A DNA stretch of 37,454 bases, taken from a virus. Lineage: Duplodnaviria; Heunggongvirae; Uroviricota; Caudoviricetes. Of the stretch, positions 1,294-8,913 are shown piece after piece. The first letter of the stretch is position 1; the number at the start of each line of letters is the position of its first letter. Where the stretch lies: positions 1-37,454 of IMG/VR virus record IMGVR_UViG_3300042472_000628. The stretch is one strand, 5' to 3'. The position numbers and the translations under genes are program-made. Below the pieces are notes generated by a model that saw only the letters and a program-made list of their open reading frames with translations, ran no database searches and was not told the DNA's origin.

Positions 1294-3126
1294 ATGCCAG
1301 CACTATGGCCATCTTTCATACCAGCATTAGCTAGTGATATAGCAGGACAATCGTTTACAAAAGCGGGCGGTGCTTTAGTGTCTTATGCTTTACCTAAAGT
1401 TGGTAAAGATCAAGTACCTATTTTTCCTCCATCACTTGAGTTAATTGAATCTCTTAAACCAGGAAATCCACTAAATGCTGACTTAAGTATTAATCCATTA
1501 GATTTGGTTAATGCAATAAATTTAAATCCATTAAGCGGTCGATATGATTTTGGTGTAAGAGTAGCTGAACGATATATTGCAGCTGTTAAAGGTAAAGCTA
1601 TGACACCATTTGGTGCAACACATACCAATAATGGAGCTGCAGAATTTTTATTAAAACAAGGTTATGGTTTGGTATTCGAAAGAATATTAAAAGAAGGTGA
1701 TATTCCATTACAAGATCAAAAAGATAAAGATGGGAATATAATTAAGATGGGAAAGGAATCACATCCAGCATATGCTGATTTTTGTCCAGGACCTATCGCT
1801 ATACCAGATCCTGTCGAAGAAGAGAAAAAACAAAATAAGAAATTTAATCAATTTATTGAAAAGTTTAAAACAGATCCAGCAATGGACCTTAAACAATTTA
1901 AATTCTTTCAGTTTCATTGTTTGGATGGTAAAGAAACTCAAAGTGATTTTATACAACTTATAGTAAATAGATTACTACAACAATTTGAAACTTATACGAA
2001 GGCTGATGACAAATGGGATTATTTTTCATGGGTAGATAGTTTAGGTAAGGAGAGATATAAAAATATTACGGGTGTTAATCTTGGTGGAAATGACTTTAAT
2101 AGTTTAAAACCATATCCAAATATTCCGACTAGCGTTAGATCTTCTATCAATAAAGCTGGTTATAAATGGGAAGAAGTAGCAGATGGTATAAGAGATCTTT
2201 TTTTAAAAACATTAGAACCAGTATTTCCTATATTTGAAAAGATAGTTAATAATACAACTACCAAAATTACTGATTGGGAAAAAAGAATTAAGAATGGTGT
2301 AAAAGCTCCTATTGTTAAACCTTGGCCATTTGATCCTGCTGAAAATGCAGAGTGTCCTTTAAATAGATACAAAATTCAAGTTTCTTTTAATAGAGAACAT
2401 AATCCACCTGACAATCCTAGTAAAAGACCAGAAATTTTAACTGATCAATTCATTACTACGTTTTCATATGATAAGTCAACTAAAAAATCATTTATAGATT
2501 CTTTAAAAACTATTGAATGGTATGACAAAGATACTAATTATACAAATATGCAGTATAAGTTAGTTGAATATGATACATGGTGGATGAAAGTACCTGATGC
2601 TATTAATACAGTTAAACAACCTGAAGACATGGTTAAAATTGATCCAAAATTAGGTGGTACAAATTTTAAGTTTCAAAGACAAGAAGTAATAGATGCTATT
2701 GCAGCAGCAAAAGAATGTGATGACGTTGAAGCAGATAGTGGTATAGATTATACTTGGCCAGGTGGAGATCCATATGAAGAAATGGCAGAGATAACTATTG
2801 CATATTGGTATGCATGTATTGTAAAACCATTTGCACCAACACCCGCTGCTTTACCAGCTTTAATACCTGCACCATTAGGTGGAATTTACATACCAATTTA
2901 TTATGGTGGTAAAAAGAGATTAGCTAATAATTTAAGAAAGGCTTGGAATAGTGGTAAAACATTTGCAACTTTACCAATTCCTGCACCTCCAGCATTAGTA
3001 GTTGCTACTGCAGTTGCCGCAGCATATGCTTTACACTTACTAGAATTTAAATTATTATACTTAGGTGGTATACCAACACCAGCAGGCCCAGTGCCAATGG
3101 TAGGTATAGTTCCTGTAGTATTCTAA
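1294..3126 (+). CDS. Hypothetical virion-associated protein (610 aa)
   Basis: Long ORF directly after the spike gene; Pro-rich hydrophobic N- and C-termini around a polar core; no family recognised. Confidence 0.6.
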   Translation: MPALWPSFIPALASDIAGQSFTKAGGALVSYALPKVGKDQVPIFPPSLELIESLKPGNPLNADLSINPLDLVNAINLNPLSGRYDFGVRVAERYIAAVKGKAMTPFGATHTNNGAAEFLLKQGYGLVFERILKEGDIPLQDQKDKDGNIIKMGKESHPAYADFCPGPIAIPDPVEEEKKQNKKFNQFIEKFKTDPAMDLKQFKFFQFHCLDGKETQSDFIQLIVNRLLQQFETYTKADDKWDYFSWVDSLGKERYKNITGVNLGGNDFNSLKPYPNIPTSVRSSINKAGYKWEEVADGIRDLFLKTLEPVFPIFEKIVNNTTTKITDWEKRIKNGVKAPIVKPWPFDPAENAECPLNRYKIQVSFNREHNPPDNPSKRPEILTDQFITTFSYDKSTKKSFIDSLKTIEWYDKDTNYTNMQYKLVEYDTWWMKVPDAINTVKQPEDMVKIDPKLGGTNFKFQRQEVIDAIAAAKECDDVEADSGIDYTWPGGDPYEEMAEITIAYWYACIVKPFAPTPAALPALIPAPLGGIYIPIYYGGKKRLANNLRKAWNSGKTFATLPIPAPPALVVATAVAAAYALHLLEFKLLYLGGIPTPAGPVPMVGIVPVVF

Positions 3127-3136
3127 AAAATGATAG

Positions 3137-3145
3137 GATATATAA
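3137..3145 (+). promoter_or_regulatory. Putative late promoter GATATATAA upstream of the S1 homologue
   Basis: Same motif recurs in intergenic gaps at 4499, 18244, 32624 and 33763; resembles the T4 late promoter TATAAATA. Confidence 0.6.
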
Positions 3146-3172
3146 TATGTTACACCTTTAATATAAAAATAA

Positions 3173-4477
3173 ATGAACAACGAAAAAAACAAAAGAGTTA
3201 GACTTGGTGAAGTTAAAGCCAACGAAAACGCAAAAGAACAGTCTGATTTGTCGCTAGACTTTCTTAAAAAAATGGCAGGAATTCCAACATCTAAAGAGGA
3301 TTCTCTTGCTACATTTTACGACAAAGACGGAAATTTTATGTGGGATGCTTATGAAGCAGATTGCCCATCTAGACTTAGAAAACCAAACCCTCACATTAAA
3401 ACTCAAAACGGAGACAAAGTTTATTCTAGAGAATCATACGCACAAGAGATGTATGATAAACTTATAGCATTCGATAGTTCTCAAGGTGTAATGGTATCTG
3501 ACTTAACAGTTGGAGAAATTCTTACAGGTAAAATCTATGCAGTTAGTTCTGATTTTATCAGTGTTGATGTTGGTTACAGAGAATTAGTATACGTTAAGTA
3601 TGACAAAGAACCTTCTGAAATTCAATCATTAAAACCAGGTGATGAAACTGCTGTATTGATTACACAATTTGGAAATAATTCACATGTGTTGGGATCTATT
3701 AATGGTGGTATTAAACACAAAGTATTCATGGATCTTAGAGAAGCTGTTGAAACTGGTGGAACTGCATGGGTAGGTAAAGTTACAAATATGATTGAGAATG
3801 GTGGTTACATGGTGACAGTTCAAGGAATTGAATGTTTTATGCCAGGATCACTTGCAGGTATTAATAAGTTACATGATTTTAGTTCTATTATTGGAACAGA
3901 AATGTACGTTGTCCCTGTAAGTTTCTCACCAGAAAGAGGCACATTAGTAGTTTCTCATAGAAAATATTTACAAGCTTTAATTCCAGGTGAAATCGAAGAT
4001 TTAAAAGCTAATCAAGGTGCAACAATTACTGGAAATGTAACAGGTTCTGCTAAATATGGGGTATTCGTTGAATTTAATAACTGTTTAACAGGTATGATTC
4101 ATAGTAATGACTTAGATGAAGAAACTACAATTAAGTTTAAAGCTAGACAAATTTTACCAGGTGATGAAATTGAATTCATCGTTAAAGATATTATTAGTGA
4201 TACTAAAATTACACTTACTCAAAAGGCAAATTCTGTATCCAATCCTTGGCATGACATTGCCTCTAGATACCAGATTCCTTCTGTGATTCAAGCAACTGTA
4301 AAAACTAAAAAAGATTACGGTTTGTTTATTACAATCGAAGAAGGTGTGACTGGACTGTTGCATGTTAGTGAAGTTGGGGAAGATATTATGGATGTATTTA
4401 AAAACGGAGATCCAATCACTGTACAAATTACAAGAATCGATGTTGATTCGATGAAAGTATTTTTGAAAATGCCATAA
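3173..4477 (+). CDS. rpsA: Phage-encoded 30S ribosomal protein S1 homologue (four S1 domains plus ~110-aa N-terminal extension)
   Basis: D1 LTVGEILTGKIYAV...VDVGYRE...LKPGDE; D2 GGYMVTVQGIECFMPGS...LVVSHRK; D3 YGVFVEF...GMIHSNDL...PGDEIEF; D4 NPW...DYGLFITIEEGVTGLLHVSEV...GDPITVQITRID. NFMWDAYE resembles the F-x-W-D-A-Y-E N-terminal motif I recall from Bacteroides bS1. Confidence 0.88.
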   Translation: MNNEKNKRVRLGEVKANENAKEQSDLSLDFLKKMAGIPTSKEDSLATFYDKDGNFMWDAYEADCPSRLRKPNPHIKTQNGDKVYSRESYAQEMYDKLIAFDSSQGVMVSDLTVGEILTGKIYAVSSDFISVDVGYRELVYVKYDKEPSEIQSLKPGDETAVLITQFGNNSHVLGSINGGIKHKVFMDLREAVETGGTAWVGKVTNMIENGGYMVTVQGIECFMPGSLAGINKLHDFSSIIGTEMYVVPVSFSPERGTLVVSHRKYLQALIPGEIEDLKANQGATITGNVTGSAKYGVFVEFNNCLTGMIHSNDLDEETTIKFKARQILPGDEIEFIVKDIISDTKITLTQKANSVSNPWHDIASRYQIPSVIQATVKTKKDYGLFITIEEGVTGLLHVSEVGEDIMDVFKNGDPITVQITRIDVDSMKVFLKMP

Positions 4478-4481
4478 TAAC

Positions 4482-4502
4482 TATTGCACCGAGAGTGTGA
4501 TA
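4482..4502 (+). terminator. RNA hairpin after the S1 gene (possible weak terminator or processing site)
   Basis: TATTGCAC-cgaga-GTGTGATA forms an 8-bp stem (2 G:U); only a weak U-tract follows. Confidence 0.35.
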
Positions 4503-4521
4503 TATATTGAAACGATAAATA
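4499..4521 (+). promoter_or_regulatory. Tandem putative late promoters GATATATA (4499-4506) and GATAAATA (4514-4521)
   Basis: Recurrent intergenic motif, just upstream of the ATG at 4535. Confidence 0.5.
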
Positions 4522-4534
4522 TCATAATCTTAAT

Positions 4535-5842
4535 ATGCAAAAGCTAACTTACGATTCTCCTAGAGAATCAATATTGAACGCAGCACTTATGGGTGTTGAG
4601 TTTGAATTCTATTCTAATCTCGATCTAGAAGAAACCAGAAAATCTTTGGTTAAACTTCTAGATCGAAAAATTAGGTTAGAAGATAAGGCCCACTCTGAAT
4701 TTCAGCCTTCCGCTGAAGAATTCAAAATGGAACCCGATATGTCTGGTGGTAAAGGTTTAATTGAATTGGTTACTGGACCAATACCTTACAGAAATGCCAG
4801 AATTATGGTTATTAAGATGCTTAAATGGATATCGGAAAATGGATATACAACTGATAGAGCATCTATTCACATCAACTTATCGTTCGATAAACAATTTCTA
4901 CAAGATAAAGATCTTCTTTCTAAAATGAATGTTCTTAAATTCATTTTAGAGTTTGATGAAAAACAAGTTTACAAGTTTTTCCCAAACAGAGAAAAATCTG
5001 CTTATGCTAAAAGTATTAAGTGGGTAATGCCAAAATGGGAAGCATTCCATTTTGATGCTAATCAAATTGCTTCAAATAATTTTAAATTTGCTGACACTAA
5101 ATATTATGGGATTAACTTCTCTAAAAAAGAGAAAAACTATCTTGAATTTAGATATTTAGGTGGAGCAGATTATGAAAAGAAGGTAGATGATATTTTATAT
5201 CTAACTGAAAGATTTTTAGCTCAAATGTGGAAGTCATGTAATGACTCTAGATTTACTCCTGAAAATAAAATAGAATTACAAAGAATCTTAAATAAAAATA
5301 AGCCGGTTTCTGATATGCTTAGAGATTATACAAAAGTCTCAGAACATTGGCCTAAAATCAAAATATTAGCTGATCTACAAGATAATCCTATTATCATAAA
5401 GGTACATTGGGACAGATTTAAAATGAGAGTAATGGATTTGTTAGTAAACGGATCTATGACTGAGGGTACTATCAATTATGATTCAGATTATGGTGCAGTT
5501 CAAGTAAAGGACGGTAAATTCCCAACTGTTTATATGCTAGAGAATTTTGAATTTATCGATTGTGAACTTGCCGGTAATTTAACTAATTGTAGTTTTTACA
5601 ATTGTGAAGTTTCAGGTTCTGCAGTTATGTGGGGAAGTTTATATCAAGGTACTAAAATAAAAGACTCTAAGGTTGAGTCTAGTTATACTCACGGAAGTTG
5701 TGAATTAACCAACTGTTATGTTGCTGGAAGGGACACTATGTTTAAAGGCAAAATGATAGGTGGAATATTCAGAGAAGGTTTCATAAGTGATTCAGCTAGA
5801 TTTGAAGAAACCGAAGTAGTAGTAAGTAAAAAAATAAAATAA
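4535..5842 (+). CDS. Putative amidoligase (COOH-NH2 ligase / glutamine synthetase-like fold) with C-terminal beta-helix-like repeats
   Basis: Motifs in the expected order: GVEFEF, EPDMSG, IELVT, SIHINLS, KYYGINF, YLEFRY. The last ~100 aa show ~5-residue periodicity (FIDCEL...LTNCSFYNCEV...IKDSKVESS...LTNCYV). Confidence 0.75.
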   Translation: MQKLTYDSPRESILNAALMGVEFEFYSNLDLEETRKSLVKLLDRKIRLEDKAHSEFQPSAEEFKMEPDMSGGKGLIELVTGPIPYRNARIMVIKMLKWISENGYTTDRASIHINLSFDKQFLQDKDLLSKMNVLKFILEFDEKQVYKFFPNREKSAYAKSIKWVMPKWEAFHFDANQIASNNFKFADTKYYGINFSKKEKNYLEFRYLGGADYEKKVDDILYLTERFLAQMWKSCNDSRFTPENKIELQRILNKNKPVSDMLRDYTKVSEHWPKIKILADLQDNPIIIKVHWDRFKMRVMDLLVNGSMTEGTINYDSDYGAVQVKDGKFPTVYMLENFEFIDCELAGNLTNCSFYNCEVSGSAVMWGSLYQGTKIKDSKVESSYTHGSCELTNCYVAGRDTMFKGKMIGGIFREGFISDSARFEETEVVVSKKIK

Positions 5843-5846
5843 TAAA

Positions 5847-6689
5847 ATGGGTCAAATTATAAGCGGTTCAAATGATGATTTATTAACTGGAAGAAGTTTC
5901 AGTAATAATTGTTTAAATGCATTTCTAGATGAAATAGCAGACGAAATTACAGGAGCTTGTATGGTTCCGGTTAACTTACCACAAAAAGAGATTATTAATA
6001 TAATTAAGAGATCTAAAAAATGGTTCTATAAGAAATACGAATACGCTGTAAAAGAAAATCTTTATCATATTCCAAATGATGTATTTTCTTCTGAATATTT
6101 TAAAAATACTAGAACACTTAATTTACCAGGCCCTGGCAATGACGGCGGAGGTGGAGTTTATTCTGTATATGGATTATACGATTTAGCTTCAGGATTCGGT
6201 GGTCAAGGTGGTGGATTGGATCTTAGATTCCAATCTGGTGGTGACTTCTCTATGGAAAGAATGTTATTTAGAGGTATGTATGAAGGTTCTGGTATGGCTG
6301 AGGCTGCAGAAGAATTACAATACTATGTATTGAATGCATCTATGGCAGACCTTTCTAGACAGATCTTAGAGAATCCTATTTCTTATGCATATTCACAATT
6401 AACTGGAGAACTTAAATTTTTAGGTGATACACCTAAAGGTGATGTGATCTTAGAAATTTACGAAACAATTCCAGATTGTGCTTTATATGACGATGAAATT
6501 TTCTTTAGATATGTTAGTGCTAAAATCAAACAATCATTAGGTACTAAGTTAGGTATTTTTAAATTTGCTTTACCAGGTAATGTTGATTTTGATTATGATG
6601 CAATCAAATCTATGGGAGATGATGAACTTACAGCTATTGAAGAAGAAATCAAAGGAGATGAAGGTGTGGACTGGATGATGCATACCTAA
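5847..6689 (+). CDS. gp13: Neck protein / head-tail adaptor, T4 gp13-like
   Basis: C-terminal FFRYVSAKIKQSLGTKLGIFKFALPGNVDFDYDAIKSMGDDELTAIEEEI matches the gp13 pattern; size about 280 aa. Confidence 0.75.
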   Translation: MGQIISGSNDDLLTGRSFSNNCLNAFLDEIADEITGACMVPVNLPQKEIINIIKRSKKWFYKKYEYAVKENLYHIPNDVFSSEYFKNTRTLNLPGPGNDGGGGVYSVYGLYDLASGFGGQGGGLDLRFQSGGDFSMERMLFRGMYEGSGMAEAAEELQYYVLNASMADLSRQILENPISYAYSQLTGELKFLGDTPKGDVILEIYETIPDCALYDDEIFFRYVSAKIKQSLGTKLGIFKFALPGNVDFDYDAIKSMGDDELTAIEEEIKGDEGVDWMMHT

Positions 6690-7083: not shown

Positions 7084-8913
7084 ATGGCTGAATTAAAATT
7101 TTTAAGTAGAATTAGAACAGGTGCAGCTGACATCAGACAAGATGCTCAGACGTATATTTCTAGGGTCTACAGTAGAGCTAATACTCTATTTACGGTGGCT
7201 TCACCGTTTGCCCAAATAATTTCAGTATTATCTGAAATATCTGATTTAATTATGTTCTACATTGAGGATTCAGTGGTAGAACAAAACATATATACTGCAC
7301 AACAGGCAGAATCTATATATGGTATGTCTAGATTAACTGGTCATGATGCTACTAGAGGATTTGCTGCAACTGGTGAGATTGAATTTAGATGGAAACCTGG
7401 AGCAGATATGTCAAAGATTGCTGGAAATACATTGAATATACAATCTAGAGCTCAACTTAAATTTGATGCTAATGGATTAATGTATACCCTTTTAAATTCT
7501 AATGATAGTTTTAAATTAGAAAAAACAAATTATACATCTATTAAAACTGCTATCATTCAAGGTAAGTTTGAATCACAAACGTTAACTTCTAGTGGTGAAA
7601 AATTACAATCATTTAGTATTAATACTGGTGGTATAACGGATCATACTAAAATAAGTGTTAGTGTTAATGGAGAACTTTGGACAAAACATGAATCTTTATA
7701 TGATTTAGGTTCTGAAGAAAAAGCATATTTAATTAAGACTGGAATTAGTGGAGGTTTAGACCTTTATTTTGGTAATGGAAGTTTTGGAATGGTGCCACCA
7801 AATGGTGCTACAATCGAAATCGAATATGTTAAGCATGCTGGAATGACAGGTAATTTAGATGATTCACCTGATTTAACTATTAAATGGGATGCAGTTGGTA
7901 CTGATTCAAATGGTAATGAACATGATCTAAATCAATTTTTAGATGTAACTATTACTTCATCGCCTAAAATGGGTGGTGATAGAGAAGATACTAGGTTTAC
8001 AAAGATTATGACACCAATGGCAAGTAAATCTTTTGTATTGGCAACTCCTGATAATTATGAATACTTCTTATCAAGATATAATATGTTCTCTTATATAGAT
8101 GCATATAACACAACTGATGACCAATATTTGGACGATGATAACGTTATTTATATTTTCGCAGTTCCTGATATTAAAAAGAAACTTGCAAAAAACCAAGATT
8201 ATTTTAATATTCCACAATCTGAAATGTTTTTAGATCAAGGTGAATATGATGCAATGCATAAAGTATTAGAAGATAGCGGACAACAAATGGTAACTACTGA
8301 AGTTGTTTTTGTTAAACCTCAAGTAAGATATTATAGTATGGATATTAACATTAGATATTTTGAAGGTTACACCAGAGATGAGATATACAGCGCTGTTAGA
8401 GCTAAAGTTTCTGAATATTTATTGAATATTACACGAAGAGATAAATTACCTAAATCTGATATAGTTTATATTTTGGAGGAAGTTGCAGGAATTGATGCGG
8501 TGAATGTTAAATTTATTTCTGAAACCGAAGAAACTGCACTAAGAAATGGTTACTTTGAATCGGTTAACGTGAGCGTTGTACCACAAGAACCAGTGACATT
8601 AGAAACTGTGGGTAATGGTAAACAAAAATACGTTTTCTTTAAAAGAATCGAAAATGTACAAACCGTTCCAGTTAAATATTCAATGGATATACCAGATACT
8701 GTAAAAGGTTTGGATCAATGGGGTGATATTATAATGGAGAAAGAAGAAGTTGCTGTATTTAGAGGTGGATGGTTAGACAGAGATGGCGATGTTATCGAAG
8801 ATGATGTATTAATGAATGCTGAAGCTGCAGTTAGTATTAACTTTGAAGCAGAACCTGTACCTAGAACAATTTACACTAGAATACAAGCTGGAAATAGAAA
8901 AGCACTTAAGTAA
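7084..8913 (+). CDS. gp6: Baseplate wedge protein, gp6/baseplate J-like
   Basis: EQNIYTAQQAESIYGMSRLTGH...AATGEI, LYFGNGSFGMVPPNGATIEIEY, GGDRED...VLATPDNYEYFL are gp6-type motifs; 609 aa. Confidence 0.85.
   Translation: MAELKFLSRIRTGAADIRQDAQTYISRVYSRANTLFTVASPFAQIISVLSEISDLIMFYIEDSVVEQNIYTAQQAESIYGMSRLTGHDATRGFAATGEIEFRWKPGADMSKIAGNTLNIQSRAQLKFDANGLMYTLLNSNDSFKLEKTNYTSIKTAIIQGKFESQTLTSSGEKLQSFSINTGGITDHTKISVSVNGELWTKHESLYDLGSEEKAYLIKTGISGGLDLYFGNGSFGMVPPNGATIEIEYVKHAGMTGNLDDSPDLTIKWDAVGTDSNGNEHDLNQFLDVTITSSPKMGGDREDTRFTKIMTPMASKSFVLATPDNYEYFLSRYNMFSYIDAYNTTDDQYLDDDNVIYIFAVPDIKKKLAKNQDYFNIPQSEMFLDQGEYDAMHKVLEDSGQQMVTTEVVFVKPQVRYYSMDINIRYFEGYTRDEIYSAVRAKVSEYLLNITRRDKLPKSDIVYILEEVAGIDAVNVKFISETEETALRNGYFESVNVSVVPQEPVTLETVGNGKQKYVFFKRIENVQTVPVKYSMDIPDTVKGLDQWGDIIMEKEEVAVFRGGWLDRDGDVIEDDVLMNAEAAVSINFEAEPVPRTIYTRIQAGNRKALK

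What the first reader, a model, noticed from the sequence alone, without database searches (positions are those of the whole stretch)
3137..4502. Phage-encoded, Bacteroidota-type ribosomal protein S1 with four domains, inside the baseplate operon under its own late-type promoter
Seen: four consecutive S1 domains matching bS1 D1-D4, an NFMWDAYE motif, a long N-terminal extension, a GATATATAA motif upstream and a hairpin downstream. Known: D1-D2 dock on the 30S, D3 onward bind AU-rich mRNA, Bacteroidota bS1 has six domains, and S1 and bS21 have been reported in large phages. Inference: it replaces host bS1 late in infection and biases ribosomes toward phage A/U-rich leaders.
Basis: partly seen in the sequence, partly recalled or inferred. 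Interest (0 to 1): 0.8.

Follow-up and report, generated by a model that had tools for sequence, protein, structure and literature searches.

The report
Phage four-domain ribosomal protein S1
A large uncultured marine phage carries, among its baseplate genes, a shortened copy of bacterial ribosomal protein S1 that keeps the docking motif of Bacteroidia ribosomes; such phage S1 genes were reported in 2020, turn out to be common, and their function is still untested.

Summary
ORF 3173-4477 (+) encodes a 434-aa protein with four OB/S1 domains and is a true bS1 homologue (NCBIfam rpsA E 1e-47; E. coli bS1 E 2e-38; Foldseek top hit is bS1 on the 30S). It lies between gp5-like hub and gp13/gp6-like genes in a 165-kb, 27-tRNA, Shine-Dalgarno-free IMG/VR phage contig.

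Only domains 1 and 2 are specifically bS1 D1 and D2. The last two are generic RNA-binding repeats, closest to D4-D6.

The F55-x-W57-x-x-Y60 motif has the spacing of FNWHNF in the Flavobacterium johnsoniae bS1 anchor helix, which contacts uS8/uS2 (PMC13000457). I found it in 27/32 class Bacteroidia bS1 and 1/111 other bacterial S1. A conserved, phage-specific basic insertion of about 25 aa follows it.

The D1-D4 tree does not place the gene inside Bacteroidota. All short phage S1, including Al-Shayeb's huge phages, form one long-branch clade; a Bacteroidia origin is not rejected (AU p 0.33).

At least 569 IMG/VR contigs carry relatives, and synteny holds down to 36% identity. The promoter motif, the 36-nt leader and the downstream hairpin are conserved.

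Ribosome replacement and late timing are untested. This scan has met the family repeatedly in other genomes. Verdict: new member of a known kind, moderate interest.

The parts
3137..3145 (+). GATATATAA promoter-like motif of the S1 gene
   Evidence: 22 plus-strand and 0 minus-strand copies in the 165-kb record, 16 of them intergenic. Invariant or nearly so upstream of S1 in relatives.
3146..3172 (+). Highly conserved 5' leader (consensus ATATGTTACAC[C/T]TTTAATATAAAAATAA), without a Shine-Dalgarno sequence
   Evidence: Nearly invariant in about 45 relatives whose S1 proteins are 57-97% identical. The adjacent 3' end of the preceding gene is free to vary. An ACCTTTAA core is also seen at 36-53% protein identity. 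TGTTACAC occurs only twice in the genome, and this is the only copy next to a promoter motif.
3173..4477 (+). Phage bS1 homologue, 434 aa (stop codon included)
3173..3313 (+). Residues 1-47: conserved basic tip (MNNEKNKRxRIGE; K5, K7, R8, R10), then a variable, disordered acidic stretch
   Evidence: Alignment A1; pLDDT below 50 for residues 1-27; region conservation 0.71 and 0.32.
3314..3361 (+). Residues 48-63: anchor helix motif F55-x-W57-x-x-Y60, of the class Bacteroidia bS1 type
   Evidence: F55, W57 and E61 are invariant. Same spacing as FNWHNF in the F. johnsoniae bS1 helix 11-20 (FLANFNWHNF) that contacts uS8/uS2 (PMC13000457). Motif found in 27/32 Bacteroidia S1 and 1/111 other bacterial S1.
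3362..3436 (+). Residues 64-88: phage-specific conserved basic insertion (CPSRLRKPNPHIKTQNGDKVYSRES)
   Evidence: Conservation 0.85 in the marine family, higher than D1. No counterpart in Bacteroidia bS1: the two shared elements are about 8-12 residues apart there and about 25 here. Present in the Lak phage S1.
3437..3484 (+). Residues 89-104: second helix (YAQEMYDKL...), equivalent to the Y-x-x-E...Y-x-x-T-L element before D1 of Bacteroidota bS1
   Evidence: AF2 helix 90-104, pLDDT about 85; alignments.
3506..3700 (+). Domain 1 (residues 112-176), bS1 D1 type
   Evidence: D1 HMM is best in 59/59 phage proteins; AF2 OB fold.
3761..3961 (+). Domain 2 (residues 197-263), bS1 D2 type with the CFMPGSLAG hallmark; the most conserved part
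   Evidence: D2 HMM is best in 59/59, margin 39 bits. Conservation 0.90 in A1 and 0.65 in A3.
4013..4222 (+). Domain 3 position (residues 281-350): canonical RNA-binding S1 repeat, closest to D4/D5/D6
   Evidence: Pfam S1. Scores D4 31.8, D5 30.4, D6 23.4, D3 18.2 bits.
4268..4468 (+). Domain 4 position (residues 366-432): canonical RNA-binding S1 repeat, closest to D6/D5/D4
   Evidence: Pfam S1 best stretch 371-431. Scores D6 42.3, D5 41.6, D4 41.4 bits.
4493..4529 (+). Conserved 11-bp hairpin between S1 and the next gene; its 5' arm holds the next gene's GATATATA motif
   Evidence: dG -15.8, z -3.9. 87% of cells paired against 23-64% in slid controls, 4 pairs with compensatory changes, 0/500 shuffles reach the covariation score. 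No T-run.

Best explanation
This is a phage-encoded, shortened paralogue of ribosomal protein bS1. It belongs to a large phage-only S1 family. From N to C terminus it has: a Bacteroidia-type anchor helix (F-x-W-x-x-Y), a phage-specific basic insertion, the ribosome-docking domains D1-D2, and two RNA-binding S1 repeats.

Proposed mechanism (inferred): the protein is made from a phage promoter together with the structural genes. It docks on the host (class Bacteroidia) 30S platform at the bS1 site through the anchor helix and D1-D2, in place of or alongside host bS1. Its two RNA-binding domains then capture the A/U-rich, Shine-Dalgarno-less leaders of phage messages and promote their initiation.

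Shown here: homology, domain identities, the anchor motif, family size, synteny, an SD-less genome, and a conserved promoter and leader.

Inferred only: ribosome binding, competition with host bS1, preference for phage mRNA, and timing of expression.
For: - Identity: NCBIfam rpsA models give E 1e-47 to 1e-25, far above all non-ribosomal S1 families. E. coli bS1 gives E 2e-38. Foldseek top hits are bS1 bound to the 30S (9gut_B, E 1e-26).
- Docking domains: D1 and D2 are assigned in 59/59 family members, and D2 is the most conserved region.
- Anchor motif: it has the same spacing as the F. johnsoniae bS1 helix modelled on uS8/uS2. It is specific to class Bacteroidia among the bacterial S1 sampled.
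- This genome: 9/179 genes have an SD-like 4-mer against 13% background, and A is enriched at -3 and at -11 to -14.
- Selection: more than 120 protein clusters at 60-97% identity, at least 569 IMG/VR contigs, and intact ORFs throughout.
- Synteny: the order hub / S1 / amidoligase-like / gp13 is kept at 53%, 40% and 36% identity.
- Same family in other phages: huge phages and Prevotella Lak phages.
Against: - No experiment bears on ribosome binding.
- Scores are far below the curated rpsA cut-offs (162.8 against 524 bits).
- The protein lies on a branch of about 2.7 substitutions per site away from all bacterial bS1, so its function may have drifted.
- Only two RNA-binding domains remain, and neither is D3-like.
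- The promoter motif is not shown to be late, because it also precedes tRNA genes.
- The host is inferred, not known.
- The conserved basic insertion has no counterpart in any characterised bS1.
Confidence: 0.55

Rival explanations
1. Off-ribosome RNA-binding factor. The phage S1 works free of the ribosome as an RNA chaperone, an mRNA-stability or processing cofactor (as host S1 does for T4 RegB), or a transcription-translation coupling or antitermination helper.
For: S1 has well-known extraribosomal roles with phages: RegB, the Q-beta replicase and lambda beta (summarised in PMC13157829). Al-Shayeb et al. left open a role 'on or off the ribosome'. The long branch suggests functional change. 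The two C-terminal domains are generic RNA binders.
Against: The parts under the strongest constraint are the ones bS1 uses for protein-protein docking: D2, and the Bacteroidia-specific anchor motif. A free RNA binder would not need them.
Confidence: 0.2
2. Dominant-negative decoy. The protein occupies the bS1 site on host 30S subunits. Because it lacks two RNA-binding domains, it shuts off host mRNAs that need full-length bS1 rather than stimulating phage mRNAs.
For: It has the same docking features as the best explanation and lacks two of the six domains. From my own knowledge, not checked here: N-terminal S1 fragments displace native S1 in E. coli and change mRNA selectivity.
Against: Two canonical RNA-binding S1 domains are strongly conserved (0.82-0.84 in A1), which a pure blocker would not need. 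Phage leaders are themselves SD-less and A/U-rich, so they should also depend on S1.
Confidence: 0.12
3. Virion-associated protein. It is made with the baseplate and neck proteins, packaged, and delivered with the DNA, so that it acts at the very start of the next infection.
For: Only circumstantial evidence. Its position inside the baseplate/neck block is fixed from 97% down to 36% identity. The basic N-terminal tip is conserved.
Against: No structural-protein homology: no PHROG family matches. T4-like structural modules often hold non-structural genes. No virion proteome is available.
Confidence: 0.05
4. Bacterial contamination or a chimeric contig: the gene is the host's rpsA, not a phage gene.
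For: Several 'phage' records in the public collection that hit S1 are bacterial contigs, for example an rpsA-cmk-himD locus labelled as an Acinetobacter phage.
Against: The gene is flanked on the same strand by phage baseplate genes. Synteny is the same in 80 IMG/VR contigs. No close relative was found in 185,579 species genomes. It falls in a phage-only clade.
Confidence: 0.01

Closest known systems
Putative rpS1 genes of huge phages (Al-Shayeb et al. 2020, PMC7162821; records LR756500, LR745206, LR756501) and of Prevotella Lak megaphages (MK250029 and others)
   Same: All fall in the same phage-only clade of short S1 proteins (100/100 support), at 27-35% identity. The Lak protein has the same N-terminal architecture: F-x-W-x-x-Y-E, a basic insertion, then KVFSHESYA. 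These genomes also lack Shine-Dalgarno sequences. The published hypothesis is likewise ribosome hijacking.
   Different: This gene comes from a distinct, cosmopolitan marine lineage; the contig is 165 kb, estimated 61% complete. It has no nucleotide-level match in GenBank phage records. It occupies a fixed place in the baseplate/neck block and has a highly conserved leader. The 2020 paper mentions proteins with 'up to six' S1 domains, whereas this family has four.
Ribosomal protein bS1 (RpsA) of class Bacteroidia, e.g. Flavobacterium johnsoniae (PMC13000457, PMC7797042)
   Same: The N-terminal aromatic anchor motif has identical spacing (FNWHNF against FMWDAY). A second helix precedes D1. D1 and D2 are of the docking type. 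The preferred mRNA context is SD-less and A-rich.
   Different: Four domains instead of six. Only 22-30% identity. A basic insertion of about 25 aa lies between the two N-terminal helices, and a variable leader of about 45 aa precedes them. It lies outside the Bacteroidota clade in the D1-D4 tree and scores below the family cut-offs.
E. coli bS1 (PDB 6h4n, 9gut, 6bu8)
   Same: Best solved-structure match by sequence (E 2e-38) and by fold (E 1e-26). The D2 hallmark GG[FY]xVxxxGIxxF[LM]PGSL is shared.
   Different: E. coli uses a different N-terminal helix (MTESFAQLFEES) and has six domains.
Phage-encoded ribosomal protein bS21 (Mizuno 2019, PMC6375957; Chen 2022, PMC9723584)
   Same: Also a phage copy of a 30S-platform initiation protein. 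It is common in phages of Bacteroidota, is linked to late replication, and is proposed to replace the host protein.
   Different: It is a different protein. No bS21 gene was found in the 165 kb held for this phage, which is incomplete.

Membership tests
Bacterial ribosomal protein bS1 (RpsA; TIGR00717, NF004952) | Tandem OB/S1 domains beginning with the bS1-specific D1 and D2 | tested here: met
   D1 and D2 HMMs are best at positions 1 and 2 in 59/59 phage proteins, with a D2 margin of 39 bits. Colinear match to NF004952 positions 26-372. AF2 shows four OB folds.
Bacterial ribosomal protein bS1 (RpsA; TIGR00717, NF004952) | Whole-protein score above the curated equivalog cut-off | tested here: not met
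   162.8 bits against 524 for NF004952; 147.1 against 577 for TIGR00717.
Bacterial ribosomal protein bS1 (RpsA; TIGR00717, NF004952) | Six domains, including a D3-type domain (Gram-negative and Bacteroidota form) | tested here: not met
   Four domains. Position 3 is never best matched by D3.
Bacterial ribosomal protein bS1 (RpsA; TIGR00717, NF004952) | N-terminal helix that anchors the protein to the 30S platform (uS2/uS8) | tested here: met
   Met at sequence level only. F55-x-W57-x-x-Y60 has the spacing of FNWHNF in the F. johnsoniae helix 11-20. AF2 predicts a helix at 57-63. Binding itself was not tested.
Bacterial ribosomal protein bS1 (RpsA; TIGR00717, NF004952) | Falls inside the bacterial RpsA radiation in a tree | tested here: not met
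   The phage clade is separated from all bacterial S1 by a 100/100 branch of about 2.7 substitutions per site. The Bacteroidota clade (100/99) excludes it. Grouping with Bacteroidia is not rejected (AU p 0.33).
Bacterial ribosomal protein bS1 (RpsA; TIGR00717, NF004952) | Physical component of the 30S subunit | not testable with these tools
   Needs co-sedimentation or cryo-EM.
Phage-encoded short S1 (huge-phage and Lak rpS1 group) | Encoded among phage genes on a phage genome | tested here: met
   Phage_base_V, gp13-like and gp6-like neighbours. IMG/VR virus record with 27 tRNAs. The same synteny is seen in relatives.
Phage-encoded short S1 (huge-phage and Lak rpS1 group) | Monophyletic with the published huge-phage S1 proteins | tested here: met
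   One clade with LR756500, LR745206 and LR756501, at 100* and 100/100.
Phage-encoded short S1 (huge-phage and Lak rpS1 group) | Genome without Shine-Dalgarno sequences | tested here: met
   9/179 genes have an SD-like 4-mer against 13% background.
Non-ribosomal S1-domain proteins (GSP13/CvfD, PNPase, RNase R, Tex) | Single S1 domain, or S1 fused to a catalytic or other domain, with the best score to that family | tested here: not met
   These families score 26-69 bits and match only the last one or two domains; rpsA models score 90-163 bits. No other domain is found.
SLBP histone-mRNA hairpin-binding domain | Significant sequence match of residues 54-93 to the SLBP RNA-binding domain | tested here: not met
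   Single sequence E 0.005. This weakens to E 0.52 with a 20-sequence profile. No Pfam hit at E up to 10.

The most novel reading that the evidence does not exclude
The S1 protein is made with the baseplate and neck proteins because it is loaded into the virion and injected with the DNA. The next host's ribosomes would then be re-equipped with a phage S1 before any phage gene is expressed. The fixed place in the structural block, the conserved basic N-terminal tip and the highly conserved leader would all serve this dosage and packaging. Nothing found here excludes this, and nothing found here supports it directly.
Probability: 0.05. Interest if true: 0.8.

Novelty: new member of a known kind. 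Interest (0 to 1): 0.35.

Why it matters
Bacteroidia start translation without Shine-Dalgarno pairing, and how bS1 reads their A-rich leaders is an open question (PMC13000457). A very large natural family of phage S1 variants keeps the Bacteroidia anchor helix and D1-D2, trims the RNA-binding part to two domains, and adds a conserved basic insertion. That is a ready-made set of separation-of-function variants for studying bS1 docking and leader recognition. It could also show directly whether phages build specialised ribosomes. The gene itself is not new: phage rpS1 was reported in 2020, the takeover hypothesis is published, and this scan has met the same family in many other genomes.

Tried and rejected
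- SLBP-like RNA-binding domain in residues 54-93. A single-sequence hit (E 0.005) was not upheld by the family profile (E 0.52) or by Pfam, so I treat it as chance.
- PHROGs gave no family for the protein.
- A scan of 185,579 species genomes with the protein found no close bacterial relative. With the family alignment it found only ordinary rpsA and PNPase genes at 24-42% identity.
- A tree to test 'Bacteroidota-type'. The phage clade sits on a long branch outside all bacterial S1. AU tests do not reject phage plus Bacteroidia: p 0.94 on the quick 99-row tree, whose free search was poor, and p 0.33 on the careful 56-row tree. The D1-D4 region is therefore uninformative about origin.
- An HMM of the Bacteroidia N-terminal region scores phage N-termini at up to 18 bits, against at most 8.5 bits for 1,520 shuffles. 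The phage insertion breaks the alignment, so the motif count is the clearer test.
- bS21 (PF01165) was not found in the 165 kb held.
- Host rpsA leaders of 24 Bacteroidia show no shared ACCTTTAA element, so the phage leader is not a copy of a host rpsA leader.
- Rfam has no family for the leader or the hairpin.
- A literature search for dedicated work on phage S1 found nothing beyond the 2019-2026 surveys.
- No nucleotide-level relative exists in GenBank phage records.

Full report
**What is there.** The finding covers one ORF, 3173-4477 on the plus strand, ATG start, 434 aa. The window is the first 37 kb of a 165,454-bp IMG/VR virus record. CheckV estimates it as 61% complete. It has 32% G+C, 27 tRNA genes, and 173 of 179 crudely called genes on one strand. 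The neighbours are phage structural genes:
- a gp5-like hub OB domain (Phage_base_V) at 578-1291;
- an unnamed 610-aa gene at 1294-3126;
- a 435-aa gene downstream, whose relatives carry faint Amidoligase_2 hits;
- a gp13-type neck gene at 5847-6689;
- a gp6/Baseplate_J-like wedge gene at 7084-8913.

The gene therefore does sit inside the baseplate/neck block.

**Identity.**
- Pfam sees only two S1 domains, the last two.
- NCBIfam rpsA models match colinearly. NF004952 positions 26-372 of 580 give E 1e-47, far above every non-ribosomal S1 family but far below the curated cut-off (162.8 against 524 bits).
- E. coli bS1 aligns over its residues 19-309 (E 2e-38).
- An AlphaFold2 model built on 59 family members (mean pLDDT 83.7) shows four OB folds joined by helices. 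It also shows an N-terminal helix (57-63), loop (64-89) and helix (90-104), preceded by a disordered tail.
- Foldseek's best PDB hits are bS1 chains on the 30S subunit (9gut_B, E 1e-26).

**Which domains.** I built HMMs of D1 to D6 from 105 bacterial six-domain S1 proteins and scored 76 phage proteins. Of these, 59 resolved into four segments.
- Position 1 is D1 in all 59 of those.
- Position 2 is D2 in all 59, with a margin of 39 bits.
- Position 3 is split among D4, D5 and D6 and is never D3.
- Position 4 is mostly D6, with margins of only 2-4 bits.

'D1-D4' is thus right for the order of the alignment but not for orthology. The protein is D1-D2 plus two generic RNA-binding repeats. D2 is the most conserved region of the family.

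**The N-terminus.** In 22 relatives at 60-97% identity, residues 53-94 contain 20 invariant positions, including F55, W57 and E61.
- Class Bacteroidia bS1 proteins carry [D/N]-F-[D/N]-W-[D/S]..[Y/F] followed by Y-[S/T]-x-E-E...Y-x-x-T-L just before D1. Examples are FDWDAYE and FNWDAYE.
- Counting an F-x-W motif within 110 residues upstream of D1 gives: 11/11 marine phage proteins, 27/32 class Bacteroidia, and 1/111 all other bacterial S1. The 'other' set covers other classes of the GTDB phylum, Acidobacteriota, E. coli, Acinetobacter, Staphylococcus and 67 unnamed long representatives. The single exception looks like a Bacteroidia protein.
- A 2026 cryo-EM study placed residues 4-40 of F. johnsoniae bS1 on the 30S as a helix-loop-helix. 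Its aromatic helix 11-20 (FLANFNWHNF) contacts uS8, and the segment is stably associated with uS2 and uS8 (PMC13000457). The spacing F-x-W-x-x-F is that of the phage F55-M-W57-D-A-Y60.
- Between the two helices the phage family has a conserved basic insertion of about 25 residues. It has no counterpart in the host proteins sampled, and its conservation (0.85) exceeds that of D1.
- The Lak megaphage S1 has the same layout.

**Family and phylogeny.**
- More than 120 protein clusters at 60-97% identity exist, on contigs up to 255 kb, many of them from Tara samples.
- At 50% clustering there are dozens of further clusters of 340-460 aa at 30-63% identity. Bacterial six-domain proteins appear only after these, at 25-32% identity.
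- At least 569 IMG/VR contigs encode relatives.
- Gene order around S1 is kept at 53%, 40% and 36% identity.
- In a careful ML tree of the D1-D4 region (56 rows), all short S1, including three of Al-Shayeb's huge phages, form one clade (100/100). About 2.7 substitutions per site separate it from all bacterial S1. Bacteroidota form their own clade (100/99) without the phages.
- Forcing phages plus class Bacteroidia together costs 6.9 lnL units and is not rejected (AU p 0.33).

The origin is therefore unresolved by D1-D4. The N-terminal motif is the only positive evidence for a Bacteroidia source.

**Host and leaders.** Only 9/179 genes have an SD-like 4-mer at -22 to -4, against a 13% background. 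Adenine peaks at -3 (0.62) and at -11 to -14 (0.58-0.65). This matches the -3, -12 and -13 preferences reported for F. johnsoniae. A Bacteroidia, probably Flavobacteriia, host is therefore likely but not proven. The BACON hit in a tail-fibre gene is weak (E 1e-3).

**Regulatory flanks.**
- GATATATAA occurs 22 times on the plus strand and never on the minus strand, with 16 copies intergenic. It is a real phage promoter-like element. It also precedes tRNA genes, so 'late' is not established.
- Upstream of S1, the motif and the whole 36-nt stretch down to the ATG are almost invariant across relatives. Their S1 proteins differ by up to 43%, and their preceding coding sequence varies freely.
- An ACCTTTAA core survives in much more distant relatives. 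It is not shared with host rpsA leaders.
- After the stop codon lies an 11-bp hairpin (4493-4529). It is conserved, with some compensatory changes. It contains the next gene's promoter motif and lacks a T-run.

**Mechanism.** The best-supported reading (about 0.55) has three steps:
- the protein docks at the bS1 site of Bacteroidia 30S subunits through the anchor helix and D1-D2;
- it uses its two RNA-binding domains on A/U-rich, SD-less phage leaders;
- the basic insertion perhaps strengthens or alters docking.

This is the hypothesis already published for huge-phage rpS1. Every functional step is inferred. The rivals are an off-ribosome RNA-binding role, a decoy that blocks host translation, and virion delivery.

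**Novelty.** Phage S1 genes were noted in viromes before 2019 and in huge phages in 2020. This scan has already followed up the same family in several other genomes and reached the same verdict. This window adds:
- the domain-orthology caveat;
- the AU tests;
- the highly conserved leader;
- the conserved hairpin.

Verdict: a well-supported new member of a known kind, with function untested.

Noticed in passing
window 3137-3172, and the same place in L122-L201: The promoter motif plus the whole 5' leader of the S1 gene is almost invariant across relatives whose S1 proteins are only 57-97% identical. It is much more conserved than the adjacent coding DNA or the next gene's leader. Candidate roles are an autoregulatory operator, a translation enhancer, or start-site context. 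An ACCTTTAA core persists at 36-53% protein identity.
   Followed up: partly
window 4493-4529: A conserved 11-bp hairpin lies between S1 and the next gene, and its 5' arm contains that gene's GATATATA motif. It would form only in read-through transcripts from the S1 promoter. Four pairs show compensatory changes; there is no T-run.
   Followed up: partly
G000:C1, whole record (e.g. 106287 and 142143): GATATATAA occurs 22 times on the plus strand and never on the minus strand. It also sits directly before the tRNA cluster and before tRNA-Ala, so it may be a general phage promoter rather than a late-only one.
   Followed up: partly
G000:C1:99417-113140 and 142158-142232 (outside the window): 27 tRNA genes, 26 of them in a single cluster of about 14 kb. 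Together they cover all 20 amino acids.
   Followed up: no
window 3173-3211 (residues 1-13): The extreme N-terminus, MNNEKNKRxRIGE, is conserved (K5, K7, R8, R10) although the next 35 or so residues are free to vary and are predicted to be disordered. Its function is unknown.
   Followed up: no
window 3332-3451 (residues 54-93): Borderline similarity to the RNA-binding domain of the histone mRNA stem-loop binding protein (PDB 4l8r_C, E 0.005; shared H-x-K-T-x-N..K-x-Y-S-R-x-S..Q). The family profile does not uphold it.
   Followed up: yes
window 4535-5842: The 435-aa gene after S1 is its constant neighbour in relatives down to 40% S1 identity. It carries only faint Amidoligase_2 hits in relatives and no Pfam hit here.
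   Followed up: partly
public phage records CAKLQH020000011.1 (L109) and OR844988.1 (L110): Some GenBank records labelled as phages that hit S1 are bacterial DNA. One is an Acinetobacter cmk-rpsA-himD-pyrF locus. Another is a 386-kb 'UNVERIFIED_ORG' Staphylococcus record. They should not be counted as phage S1.
   Followed up: partly
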